A stretch of DNA of 63,977 nucleotides, filler included, from Octopus bimaculoides (GCF_001194135.2; 6 parts of 6 records of this genome joined end to end with filler, not necessarily neighbours in it); one strand, 5' to 3'; positions 480 through 48,980 are shown, numbered from the whole stretch's first letter. Notes: a model not told the origin generated them from the sequence alone. Numbers and translations are program-made.

Positions 480-800
480 TCTATTTCGTATTTTATCTAA
501 ATTAACTATTGCTTAACCACTTTCTCACACCGTCTCCGATGAAGAGATATAATAAATATCCTGGAAACAGCTGTAAGACCTTCTATTCATAAATATTCTA
601 AACTCTACACAGCCTTGGTATTTTTTAATCTCGTAACGAAAATACCTTATATACACACTCTGATATATGACCTACGCTGGAACTGTTATTCGCATAATCA
701 CCAAACCTGGAACCTAGGTATGGTCAATCCATAGCACTTACTCAGCATTATCTGACACCTTTGGTTCTCATTGACAATACTACCCTCATAACCTCCTATA
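480..800 (+). mobile_element. Penelope-like pseudo-LTR repeat carrying a hammerhead motif
   Basis: Shares the hammerhead block and the downstream CAGCACTTACTC.GCATTATCTG segment with 13790-14340. Penelope RT lies about 1.2 kb away. Confidence 0.6.
532..579 (+). ncRNA. Minimal type-I hammerhead ribozyme motif (U4C core variant)
   Basis: GTCT-CCGATGA-[GATAT/ATATC stem II]-GAAA-CAGCTG-TA-AGAC. Helix I is GTCT/AGAC and helix III is the palindrome ACAGCTGT. Confidence 0.75.
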
Positions 801-2039
801 TATATATATATATATATATATNNNNNNNNNNNNNNNNNNNNNNNNNNNNNNNNNNNNNNNNNNNNNNNNNNNNNNNNNNNNNNNNNNNNNNNNNNNNNNN
901 NNNNNNNNNNNNNNNNNNNNNNNNNNNNNTATATATATAATTCTTTTATTGTTTCCTTCTTTCCCTTTCTCTCTCTCTCTCTCTCTCTCTCTCTCTCTTT
1001 TTATCTTATAAATCCTCCAAAATTTCTCCGAATCACATGCTTATACACACACTCATATACATAAGTGCACACACACAAACACACACACACCATTTATCCG
1101 AACTACATATTGATTTTGCAACTAATTAGCATAAATTATAAACATTAATTATAGCTTAACTTTCATTCCCTCTTTGTAATCGTTTTATTATTTTTAGAGA
1201 TGATAGCTTCATATTATTTGGTCAATTTATCATCTGTGAATTCTTGCGCTTCACTTTTTTTCTGCTAATATATTCCTTTCTCATGTATGTTTTCCATTCA
1301 CATTATATATATATTTACATTATTTGTGACGTAGATGTTGGAGAAACGTTTCTCAATACTCTGGTTTAATTGAATGATTTATGGTTAATGAAATATATAA
1401 TTATGCTCCGTTCTTAATGCTATGCGTCTGTGAAATCTAACATAATCTCATATGTGGCCACTCAAACATAAAATGTTATAACTGAAGAGAATGTATAATT
1501 CTCTGAAGTGAGAAATCGCCATCAGCAAGAACCTTCAAAACTGTATACCTTAGTATTCTAAAGAATTACCTCCTTCCATTGTTTACTTGTTTGTGAGATT
1601 TGCCAAAGTGTTACAAAACGTCACATTCACTCAGATTTGTTCAGTTGAATAGTACAAACATTGTTTGTTGGTTGTATGTAGCGGCTAGGATAACTTATAT
1701 ATTTAGAATAACTTATATATAATCTAGTAGATGATCAAAGGGAATTGATCATTATTTGGGAAAATTTTAATTAAAATAAAGCAGTTTACCATCTGAAATA
1801 TACCTTTATTCAATGAAGAGAGCATCAACTTACAATGAATGACAAATTAAGCAATAGCCATAGTATTTTGTAATCATTAGCACAATTTAATTAAACTTCT
1901 ATATATCATAGTAATGCCACGTACCTGTTACGGGTGAGTATGTATTCAAGTTCACATACACGCACATACAAATACAGACCTTTCTAATTTAGGCCTTCTA
2001 CCAATTCCCCTGAAGTGGAAAACAAGTCGCATATTATTT

Positions 2040-2575
2040 TGGAAACACCTTCCTTCCTATACCTTTTCAGACAAGGAGAGGGAATTCTGCGTCATAGGTC
2101 CAGTTATGGTAAATTAACAATCGAACATTTCAATGACACTACACAATACGAAAAAGCACATACCACACCTAATCAGCTTGAGGCCTTGATTAACATCTGC
2201 TGGAACAATATTTGGTATAGAAAAGGTCTCTAAGAAGACTAGACTTAATTTCACATCTAAAATTACTCCCTCCCCTCTTTCTATCACTTAGTGAAAACCC
2301 ACTGTTTGCCCAAACTCGAAATTAGATCTATATTCTCGGGAATTGACAGCCCCTTTTATAACATTTCCTGATTCTCTCTAAATTGCTCAAACTTCTACTG
2401 CATACATTATCCCGGACACGTCGATGGCTCCAAACAGATCTTTAAAATTTCAAGGTTATCGAGCACTCACTACTCAGAAATAACCGATACCCTTTGAGCC
2501 TAGACGTTGTCTCCATCTATATTTCTGTGCCCGCTCTTCCAGCCGTCGATATCAGTACTGACCGCATCGCATCTC
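2040..2575 (+). pseudogene. Penelope-like reverse transcriptase fragment (frameshifted)
   Basis: Across frames: DKGEGI..YGKLTIEHFNDTTQYEK, FYHLVKTH, SLDVVSIYISVP (PLE RT motifs ADKG, FYxLPKxHK, SLDVxSLYTxVP). Confidence 0.85.
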
Positions 2576-2626
2576 CCCTTCTGTTACTCTTGTACTCTAC
2601 TTATTTCTTCCTCTCTTCCATCTCGC

Positions 2627-2729
2627 TCTTCTTCTTCTTCTTCTTCTTCTTCTTCTTCTTCTTCTTCTTCTTCTTCTTCTTCTTCTTCTTCTTCTTCTTC
2701 TTCTTCTTCTTCTTCTTCTTCTTCTTCTT
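2627..2729. repeat. (CTT)n microsatellite
   Basis: Direct reading; it explains the poly-F and poly-S ORFs. Confidence 0.99.
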
Positions 2730-2814
2730 TTCCGTCACTCTCTTTACCAACCTTTATCCTTTTAATATTATACCCTTAACCATCCGTGGACTAATAGATA
2801 TTATTGCAGGTACC

Positions 2815-3238
2815 ACTTTGCCAGAGGGTATTATTTGCTTCGCCAATGTCTCAATGTCTCTCTACACCTGACAAAGGCATGAAATAAATTGAAGACTTTC
2901 ATGTCTGCAATGCAAGCCATATGCTACCATTTTGTCCCAGAGAGAAAGGCCACTGCACATAAAAACAATGTTTCCAGGGTTAGAAAATTTCTTATGAGAG
3001 GGCGTGAAAAGATTACAAAGAGCCTCAACAGAGAACTCTATGTCAATGAGAAACGCTGCCTGGAAACAAAACAGCTGGAGATTGAGATTTGCAGTTTGGG
3101 AAGGTAATGCACTATATGAGGCTTTGCGTTTTGCAGTTCATATCTGAATTTATTTTGAAAAGGGATACACTCTTGAATGTTATGTAGGTGCCACTTTCCA
3201 AGTATTTGAAGTTGTTAATATTTTAGCATGTTCCACAT
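2815..3238 (-). pseudogene. Inverted duplicate of the Penelope GIY-YIG endonuclease region, split by a ~240-bp insert (2850-3088)
   Basis: 3089-3238 matches the reverse complement of ~3476-3626 (roughly 90% by eye); 2815-2849 matches ~3631-3665. Confidence 0.85.
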
Positions 3239-3439
3239 GCAAAAATGTGTACGGGGCGATTTTGTAATCAGTAGCACAATTACAAAATCAGATACTGAAG
3301 GAAAAAGTTAATGAAAACACGATTCCGTTCATTAACACAAAGTCCTGGAATAACCAACATCTTTCACCTCATAAAATCGAACTTACCTATACTCCTACAA
3401 AGCCTCTAAATGAAAAATCTGATTGCAAAAAACACCTTA

Positions 3440-46902: not shown

Positions 46903-46938
46903 CCATGATCGCGTTAGTGAAATTCCACGCGGTATAAG
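46903..46938 (+). CDS. Candidate exon (HDRVSEIPRGI)
   Basis: ttattgatttcag|...AAG|gtataa; phase 2 to 2. Confidence 0.2.
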
Positions 46939-47011
46939 GTATAATTTTATTTAAATGCAGTCTGGACTGCGCTACCTTGGTAAATAAAATGTGTTTCTCT
47001 TATAATTTCAG

Positions 47012-47087
47012 AAATAAACCAGCTACCAATTCAAGCTGCTAGAGTCGGCACAAATGGAGGAGAAAACATTCAAAAAGAAATTTTAAG
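47012..47087 (+). CDS. Candidate exon (INQLPIQAARVGTNGGENIQKEIL, or terminal NKPATNSSC*)
   Basis: ctcttataatttcag|...AAG|gtatca; frame ambiguous; no homology recognised. Confidence 0.25.
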
Positions 47088-48239
47088 GTATCATCCATAT
47101 ATATGTATGTATGTAATTATATATACTTACCTATCTACATATCCATATCTATACATATATATATGCATACACACACACACACACACACACACACACACAC
47201 ATATATATATATATATATATATATATATNNNNNNNNNNCACACATATATATATATATATATATATATATATGCATATATCTATCTATCTATCTATCTATC
47301 ATCTATCTATCTATCTATCTATCTATATATGTGCATATATCTATCTATCTGCGTGCACACACGCTCACACGCACACACACACACACACACACACACACAC
47401 ACACATAAAATTCTGTCATCGTTGAGGCATTACGACGACAATGACCACCATCACCTCCAATACTACCAGCCCAACCACAACTACTTCTGCCACCGCCTTC
47501 CTCACTCCACGTCCTCTGGTAAATACCAACACAAACTCTCTCCTGATGTGCCCACCACTACCAACACCAACACCANNNNNNNNNNCCACCACCACCACCA
47601 CCACCACCACCACCACCACAACAACAACAACAACAACAACAACAATAACAACAACAACACTAGTTTAATGATTACAATGTAAATTTAGGTTTTCCAATCA
47701 ATTTCATTAAATATTTAGATTTAATGAACAGCGAAATGAAGCATGTTGCCACACCTCACTATTATTGTTTTTGTTGCTATTGTATTAGTAACTCTATTAA
47801 TTGATGGCTTCCTTGTTGCTGCTGTTAAAGCTGTAGTTTGCTGTATTATTATTATTATTATTATTATTATTATTATTATTATTATTATTATTATTATTAT
47901 TATTATTAGTAGTAGTAGTAGTAGTAGTAGTAGTAGTAGTAGTAGTAAAACTGGTGCATTTTAAGCAGAGTTTATTAGTAAACGCACGAAATCATGAAAA
48001 TGGCGATGTTACATAACTTTATAAAAGGTTGCAATCGTTTCAACAATAATTGGAACCATTTCTTTCGCTTGCAGATTCTTTTGTACTGATACAAACAACG
48101 GAATTGAAACAATAATTAATCAATTAATTACTTCATGAGCTTTTAGTTGTTGTTCCTGTTGTTGTTATAGTAATAATGACTCTATTATTATTTCATGGTT
48201 TTCTTGTCGTTCTAGCCGTAGAATTGTATGTATTTCACT

Positions 48240-48730
48240 TGTTTCAATCATCAGACGGAGGCAACACTGCAGCACCGCTTTGAACGGTTTAGCCGAACAA
48301 ATCGACTTCAATCCTTATTTTTATAAGGTCTGATGCTTACGCTAGCGGTCTCGTTTGCCGAACAACTAGGTTACGGTAACGGTTGTGAAGTAGTGATGGG
48401 AAACTAGCACAATGCAAAGACACGCATACAGACCCTATATATAGANNNNNNNNNNATATATATATACTGCAGTCTATTCATTTCACTAAAACTTCTCGAA
48501 GGCGGTGCTCCAGCATGGCCTCAGTCAAATGACTGAAACAAGCGATGAATATCAAATATATATATGTATATATACTTATTCATTCTTTTATTCGTTTCAG
48601 TCATTTGACTGAAGCACCACCTTTAGTCGAAGAAATCGACCACATGACTTATTCTATCGGGATCTTTTGCCGAATCACTAAGTTACGGGGACCTAAACAC
48701 ACTGAAATCGGTTGAAAAGATTTGCTGTGT
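48240..48730. mobile_element. Cluster of SINE family B 3'-half fragments in both orientations
   Basis: GGCGGTGCTCCAGCATGGCC..GACTGAAACA on plus; TAAGTTACGGGGAC and TTTGCCGAAC on minus. Confidence 0.8.
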
Positions 48731-48944
48731 GTGTGGTGGGGGATACACACACACACACACACACACACACACACAGAGCCACACACACACACACACATAT
48801 ACACACACACAAAGCCACACACACACACACACACAGAGCCACACACACACACACGCANNNNNNNNNNCACACGCACACACACACACACACACACACACAT
48901 CCACTACTCATTCTCTTTTTCTCTCCTTGTTTCTTTCTGTGTTC

Positions 48945-48980
48945 CTATCTGTGGAAGAGCGTAGGCTCGAAACGTTAAAC
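48945..48980 (+). ncRNA. Degenerate hammerhead-like motif
   Basis: CTGTGGA-A-GAGC-GTAG-GCTC-GAAA-CG-TT; core A6 is lost and helix I does not pair. Confidence 0.45.

What the first reader, a model, noticed from the sequence alone, without database searches (positions are those of the whole stretch)
532..48980. At least five structurally different hammerhead ribozyme motifs in 64 kb
Seen: complete or near-complete minimal type-I hammerheads at 532, 10996, 13966, 28950 (minus) and 43195, plus decayed ones at 4592, 36427 and 48945. Helix III differs between them (ACAGCTGT, ACGT, ACGCGT, ATGT-TG-ACAT) while staying self-complementary, and helix II differs completely. Known: Penelope-like elements and non-autonomous retrozymes carry minimal hammerheads with palindromic helix III that are thought to work as dimers. 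Inference: several independent self-cleaving retroelement families populate this genome, and some copies may still cut host transcripts.
Basis: partly seen in the sequence, partly recalled or inferred. Interest (0 to 1): 0.75.

Follow-up and report, generated by a model that had tools for sequence, protein, structure and literature searches.

The report
Penelope retroelement ends carrying hammerheads
The eight motifs are real hammerhead-ribozyme shapes at the broken-off ends of seven repeat families, mostly Penelope-type jumping genes, a known arrangement; the one unusual point is that two abundant families carry a changed core letter in nearly all copies that would likely slow self-cutting, and cutting itself is untested.

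Summary
All eight sites exist and exceed chance: 3 fully formed motifs against 0 in 12 shuffles. They belong to seven dispersed repeat families. In longer copies of five families the motif lies 3' of a GIY-YIG endonuclease frame, so these are truncated Penelope-like element (PLE) ends from several clades. One family is a 513-bp non-coding, retrozyme-like unit with compensatory stem I changes; one is an old relic.

- Only 28990 and 11008 are complete with a canonical core.
- 536 and 13970 carry C4, which is family-wide (76 of 82).
- 43199 has lost its 3' stem I arm.
- 48949 is mostly not decay: its family has U6 in 94 of 100 listed copies, while positions 7 and 17 vary.

RNA reads cover two families but show no ends at the cut site, so cutting of host transcripts is unsupported. 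Minimal hammerheads in PLE ends are published, including for molluscs, and this scan noted the same system before in this and other genomes. What remains open is whether the U6 and C4 families still cut.

The parts
529..821 (+). Family A relic, old copy. Hammerhead 532-579: core CCGAUGA at 536 (C4), helix II base mismatched, helix III ACAGCUGU, predicted cut after 575
4368..4744 (+). Family E 3' end (PLE with CX4CxxC linker). Hammerhead core at 4597; this copy has C at 16.1, so it is decayed; family helix III AGAACU is not a palindrome
10529..11258 (+). Family B 3' end (Hydra-like PLE). Hammerhead 11005-11089 with canonical core, 58-nt helix II arm, helix III AUGUUGACAU, predicted cut after 11086; 143-bp tandem in the 3' UTR
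   Evidence: z -4.75
13491..14089 (+). Family A 3' end (Hydra-clade PLE), 5'-truncated, ending in (TA)n. Hammerhead 13966-14014 with C4 core, predicted cut after 14010
28893..29129 (-). Family C insertion (young Penelope/Poseidon-like PLE): canonical minimal hammerhead 28995-28950 (core 28990, predicted cut after 28955), about 39 nt of likely ORF start joined 5' of it, and an inverted tail 29040-29129. It continues over an assembly gap to L090, with a 13-bp target duplication
36400..36475 (+). Family F, old relic. Core at 36426, G at position 17; three homologues at 77-79%
43133..43249 (+). Family D fragment (513-bp non-coding retrozyme-like unit). Core 43199-43248 intact; about 37 nt including the 3' arm of stem I appear deleted
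48901..49064 (+). Family G 3' end (PLE with CCHH endonuclease). Hammerhead-shaped motif 48945-48980 with family-wide U6; stem I damaged in this copy

Best explanation
The eight motifs are hammerhead-shaped sequences in the 3' ends of seven dispersed repeat families; five of these families carry a GIY-YIG endonuclease frame upstream in longer copies and are likely Penelope-like elements, and one is likely a non-coding retrozyme copied by such elements. Inferred mechanism: the PLE protein nicks DNA (often TA repeats) and primes reverse transcription 60-200 nt 3' of the hammerhead. It usually stops or switches template early, so most insertions keep only the ribozyme-bearing end, sometimes with an inverted partner. 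In the source elements the hammerhead would process tandem precursor RNA slowly, as a dimer through the palindromic helix III and perhaps with protein help. The lone copies in this window are likely inert passengers in host transcripts.
For: Shown: fixed 3' ends and ragged 5' ends in family A. An endonuclease frame lies upstream on the same strand and is shared by independent loci in A (3 loci, >=1.55 kb), C (2), E (2) and G (2); B has 1 locus. GIY-YIG support: weak Pfam hits for A (E 0.015) and E (E 0.004). For G, Atlas score 0.96 to clusters with GIY-YIG on 42-63% of members, 11 of 11 long phmmer hits tested carry GIY-YIG and 2 also RVT_1. Inverted partners within 1.5 kb: C 11 of 25, A 4 of 30, B 3 of 23, D 3 of 13, E 1 of 20, G 1 of 20. 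(TA)n behind the tail: B 18 of 23, A 14 of 30, G 10 of 20. Exact motif counts: C 3,478, G 2,458, A 82, reversed-pattern controls 0. D stem I has 3 pairs with two-sided changes, 18 cells against 6.9 in shuffles. The published consensus CUGANGAH G...C GAAAN palindrome NUH fits C exactly.
Against: B's link to an ORF rests on one locus, and its and C's frames got no GIY-YIG Pfam hit; they are read from motifs. No full-length element was retrieved. D's two-sided changes may be about three events on a tree, and the pair-count measure was not above shuffles (269 of 500). Dimer folding was predicted for A only, not for B or C. Cleavage was not observed.
Confidence: 0.88

Rival explanations
1. The families are mainly non-autonomous retrozymes that spread through circular RNAs.
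For: Fits D: a 513-bp unit in partial tandems of up to about 1.7 units, with unit-length permuted copies (L084, L086), a 6-bp stem I and no PLE frame next to the motif. C also makes short tandem mini-units (L090, L092).
Against: Five families lead into endonuclease frames. None of the 25 D loci showed two same-strand hammerheads (which recognised 18 motifs).
Confidence: 0.12
2. Intact copies act as live ribozymes that cut host transcripts, in cis or by pairing with another copy.
For: Thousands of intact C motifs, and C and G sequence is present in RNA runs.
Against: No read-end pile-up or dip at the cut site in three runs. Single minimal hammerheads showed no cleavage in PMC4209133. The Anolis PLE hammerhead needed the PLE protein and showed no read ends at the site (PMC11167929). 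The ACGU duplex is only -1.7 kcal/mol.
Confidence: 0.1
3. The motifs are chance matches in AT-rich repeat DNA.
For: Five of eight motifs fold no better than shuffles; Rfam finds none.
Against: Shuffle controls, same position in every family, covariation in D.
Confidence: 0.02

Closest known systems
Minimal type I hammerheads in pLTRs of metazoan PLEs (Cervera and de la Pena 2014, PMC4209133; parts 1-2 of 4 of the text and part 2 of 3 of supplement file 2 read; supplement file 1 not searchable)
   Same: Type I topology, extra base between 9 and 10.1, palindromic or absent helix III, many unrelated families per genome, mostly single truncated copies, opposite-strand pairs; mollusc examples listed.
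   Different: In the alignment part I saw, cores are CUGANGA or UUGANAA; none has C4 or U6. Helix II arms of B (58 nt) and D (33-36 nt) are longer.
Hydra-clade PLEs, e.g. Hydra-1_Obim (Craig et al. 2021, PMC8557442; section 11, passages and supplement hits read)
   Same: Family A has the CxCX5C linker, CxxC..E..N..CxH, a matching RT thumb by eye and TA targeting; B has CxxC/CxH and TA targeting.
   Different: Hammerhead sequences of A and B differ from that listed for Hydra-1_Obim, so they are other families; A has C4.
Poseidon PAc of Anolis carolinensis (PMC11167929; passages read)
   Same: Reading frame overlaps the hammerhead in the terminal repeat; two alternative 3' ends. Family C shows an open frame from an ATG 34 nt before the core through the tail.
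   Different: Family C has a tRNA-like segment with A- and B-box-like motifs between the endonuclease and the hammerhead (both boxes in 11 of 25 loci).
Metazoan non-LTR retrozymes (PMC7229834, passages; bioRxiv 10.64898/2026.07.22.740005, parts 1-2 of 5)
   Same: Family D: non-coding, AT-rich unit with type I hammerhead in partial tandem.
   Different: Unit is 513 bp (220-390 in coral, mussel and axolotl; 51-972 in the preprint); no two-hammerhead tandem seen; circles untested.
Natural core variants U4C (viroid) and A6C (phage Bcep176) (Perreault et al. 2011, PMC3088659; section 8 and passages)
   Same: Changes at the same core positions, both reported to lower activity in vitro.
   Different: Those are rare single cases. 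Here C4 and U6 are the majority state of large genomic families; A6U itself was not found in two searches.

Membership tests
PLE minimal hammerhead | Core CUGANGA / GAAA / UH in type I order | tested here: inconclusive
   Met by B, C, D and the E family; not met by A (C4 in 76 of 82) or G (U6 in 94 of 100 listed).
PLE minimal hammerhead | Unpaired base between 9 and 10.1, and G10.1-C11.1 | tested here: inconclusive
   Met in C, G, B (extra C, plus an extra A before GAAA) and E (extra G); D has G-C without extra base; A has A-U.
PLE minimal hammerhead | Palindromic helix III | tested here: met
   A, B (with G-U), C, D and G are self-complementary; E (AGAACU) is not.
PLE minimal hammerhead | Located in the terminal repeat 3' of an RT/GIY-YIG ORF | tested here: met
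   A, B, C, E and G in long copies; not seen for D or F.
PLE minimal hammerhead | Self-cleavage as a dimer or with protein | not testable with these tools
   Indirect RNA-seq test negative but weak.
Hydra-clade PLE | CxCX5C linker | tested here: inconclusive
   Met in A; not seen in the single B locus.
Hydra-clade PLE | CxxC and CxH flanking conserved E and N; no CCHH | tested here: met
   A and B frames against section 11 of PMC8557442.
Hydra-clade PLE | (TA)n target | tested here: met
   A 14 of 30, B 18 of 23, against C 1 of 25.
Hydra-clade PLE | RWK and DKT motifs in the N-terminal RT region; phylogenetic placement | not tested
   N-terminal region of A and B was not retrieved.
Non-LTR retrozyme (family D) | Short non-coding unit with type I hammerhead | tested here: met
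   513-bp period; no PLE frame in 13 oriented loci.
Non-LTR retrozyme (family D) | Tandem units each holding a hammerhead | tested here: not met
   0 of 25 loci with two same-strand motifs; partial tandems only. Short-read gaps may hide arrays.
Non-LTR retrozyme (family D) | Circular RNA | not testable with these tools
   No RNA test was run for D.

The most novel reading that the evidence does not exclude
Family G is a very successful Penelope-like lineage whose hammerhead fold is still under selection although core A6 is U throughout. Its common non-CpG changes fall at positions 7, 17 and loop II, which are free in working hammerheads, and position 17 is never G. Either the element's protein rescues a crippled core, or the fold is kept as a signal rather than a cutter. 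With the C4 family A this is a natural test of whether Penelope elements need self-cleavage.
Probability: 0.4. Interest if true: 0.55.

Novelty: new member of a known kind. Interest (0 to 1): 0.3.

Why it matters
The general picture is established, so the window mainly adds examples from a probable octopus genome. The role of hammerheads in Penelope elements is still unsettled: Naiads lack canonical ones, and PAc inserts in vitro without cleavage. Families that expanded to thousands of copies with C4 or U6 cores, beside a young family with a canonical core, give a direct comparison for cleavage and transposition assays. Descriptor searches that demand CUGANGA would miss these families entirely.

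Tried and rejected
Rfam at E<=1 gave no hammerhead in the window and no tRNA match for the family C segment; ARAGORN found no tRNA in 8 C loci. 'tRNA-like' therefore rests on box-like motifs recalled from memory.

No holder in the run search was on record as RNA; three raw RNA runs of the same species label were laid instead.

Word-based protein searches with the G and E frames found nothing. The family C frame holds stops and was not searched this way.

A ninth candidate at 59797 appeared only in the looser scans and failed the scored one; rejected as chance.

I first took the GIY-YIG relic at 3268-3777 for family E's ORF. E's own endonuclease in L123 and L134 is a different sequence, so I rejected that. 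I first read A and B as Neptune-like; Hydra features fit better.

The first B-box regex was wrong and was redone. For the D alignment I dropped 2 of 18 motifs (one badly degenerate, one 5'-truncated).

Lunse et al. 2017, on about 150,000 small PLE hammerhead variants (figure recalled), was not held. It may already list C4 or U6 cores. Sequence look-ups in earlier scan notes for G and D returned nothing.

Full report
Setting. The window is a pack of six AT-rich, microsatellite-rich stretches of a 2.34-Gb genome. The eight sites lie on three chromosomes (C7, C20, C10). The genome is probably an octopus. This is an inference: a neighbouring RT in L115 resembles Hydra-1_Obim by eye, and earlier scan notes say the same.

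Observation. All eight motifs exist. Descriptor scans beat local dinucleotide shuffles: 2 against 0.0 and 4 against 0.32 in 60 shuffles, and 3 against 0 at score >=10 in 12 shuffles. Rfam finds none in the window and only 11 in the genome among 74 candidates scored, so its model misses these minimal forms. Two sites are complete and canonical (28990 minus; 11008). 13970 is complete with C4. The others are damaged in the ways listed under parts.

Families. Each site was searched in the genome. About 40 best candidates were scored per search, so fetched loci are biased towards the window copy. First-look candidates: A 1,613; B 533; C 1,267; D 42; E 1,232; F 4; G 1,312. Exact pattern counts, with reversed controls at 0: C 3,478; G 2,887 and 2,458 for two patterns; A 82. 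Eight relics in about 59 kb of called bases would scale to the order of 10^5 per genome, a rough inference from one window.

Link to Penelope-like elements. Family A copies share a 3' end about 70-100 nt after the motif and have ragged 5' ends. Three of 30 run at least 1.55 kb upstream into a GIY-YIG frame, with an RT thumb in L116. The frame has the Hydra hallmarks of PMC8557442. B leads into a similar frame in 1 of 23 loci. E leads into a frame with a CX4CxxC linker in 2 of 20. G leads into a CCHH-type frame in 2 of 20; its relatives carry GIY-YIG (11 of 11 tested) and, where long enough, RVT_1 (2 of 11). C leads into a Penelope/Poseidon-like frame in 2 of 25. Clade labels for C, E and G are motif readings, not trees. 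Inverted partners and TA flanks and a 13-bp target duplication around the C insertion match published PLE insertion anatomy.

Family C. The best 40 matches are about 99% identical over 103 nt, so it is young. Between the endonuclease and the hammerhead lie a tRNA-like segment and an (AAT)n tract; both box-like motifs are seen in 11 of 25 loci, many others being cut by gaps. A stop-free frame runs from 34 nt before the core through the motif to the end of the repeat in the 22 loci that keep this part, starting with ATG in 21, and it continues into PLE-like sequence in L090 and L118. This parallels PAc. The window copy lacks the tRNA-like part.

Family D. A 513-bp period with partial tandems, permuted unit-length copies and inverted fragments. 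In 16 aligned motifs, 92.6% of cells pair, and stem I has three pairs with two-sided changes (18 cells against 6.9 shuffled; slid controls at most 6). The number of such pairs is not above shuffles, and relatedness inflates the cell count. It works like a retrozyme, but the two-hammerhead tandem criterion was not met in 25 loci.

Variant cores. A: position 4 is C in 76, U in 5 and G in 1 of 82; the U cases fit CpG decay. G, among the first 100 listed of 2,887: position 6 is U 97, C 3, A 0; position 7 is G 40, U 36, C 13, A 11 (hand count). Among the first 100 of 2,458: position 6 is U 94, C 4, A 2; position 17 is U 57, A 31, C 12, G 0; the 12 with C17 all have A4 (hand count). Those patterns freed only chosen positions. 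RNA reads give a less biased view (run X22): inside the motif the large differences are position 7 (27% C, 38% U), position 17 (36% A), loop II (27% at a CpG, 10% deletion) and two CpG sites (13%, 8%). Position 6 is not among the 40 rows shown; 35 rows were hidden. This looks like constraint on a hammerhead fold, but it rests on few subfamily events. U4C and A6C are known to lower activity. A6U was not found in two searches or in the searchable supplements; the most relevant paper was unavailable.

RNA. About 6% of each of three runs of one study was read. C: 3,835, 2,930 and 2,769 reads; G: 2,078, 1,925 and 1,262. Both orientations are about equally covered, and 71-89% of reads run on into unrelated sequence, as for passengers in host RNA. 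There is no start or end pile-up and no dip at the cut site. The test is weak: the libraries look unstranded and no DNA control was laid.

Mechanism. Shown: the motifs, their families, their position 3' of endonuclease frames, truncation and inversion, covariation in D, family-wide C4 and U6. Inferred from known PLE biology: target-primed reverse transcription from the tail, and slow dimer- or protein-assisted processing of tandem precursors. Co-folding predicted the double-hammerhead form for A only. Untested: any cleavage.

Verdict. A real but known system: new families of a published kind, also noted several times by this scan in this and other genomes. Interest 0.3, carried mostly by the variant-core families.

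Noticed in passing
window 3085-3777 and 4034-4062: GIY-YIG endonuclease relic of a further PLE family (3268-3777 +) with an inverted partial copy (3088-3238). A degenerate hammerhead-like stretch at about 4034 may be its ribozyme, a possible ninth site.
   Followed up: partly
window 28398-28682 (-): Frame resembling the N-terminal part of a PLE reverse transcriptase (by recalled motif; no Pfam hit).
   Followed up: no
L090 1464-1551; L118 1207-1295; window 29003-29041: Two independent family C insertions join the same point about 80 nt into the likely ORF to different places in the terminal repeat, hinting at a preferred third priming or switch site (2 loci only).
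   Followed up: partly
L001, L004, L008; L002, L003, L005, L007; L006: Further hammerhead families in the genome not present in the window, some with 80-nt helix II arms; L001 and L007 hold opposite-strand pairs.
   Followed up: no
L115 about 4200-6530 (-): Another Hydra-like PLE with RT and endonuclease frames and its own canonical-core hammerhead about 640 nt downstream.
   Followed up: partly
window 12011-12104 and 14145-14238: 94-bp perfect inverted duplicate 2.1 kb apart, next to the family A tail.
   Followed up: no
window 238-481, 17595-18694, 23155-23626, 37130-37618: Fold-back or closely repeated segments of 230-250 bp, not examined.
   Followed up: no
window 55750-56849 (+); 30319-30651 (-); 22208-22758 (-); 27050-27654 (-): Relics of other transposons: a LINE-type RT (RVT_1, E 9e-6), mariner-like frames by recalled motif, and a FLYWCH-bearing element.
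   Followed up: no
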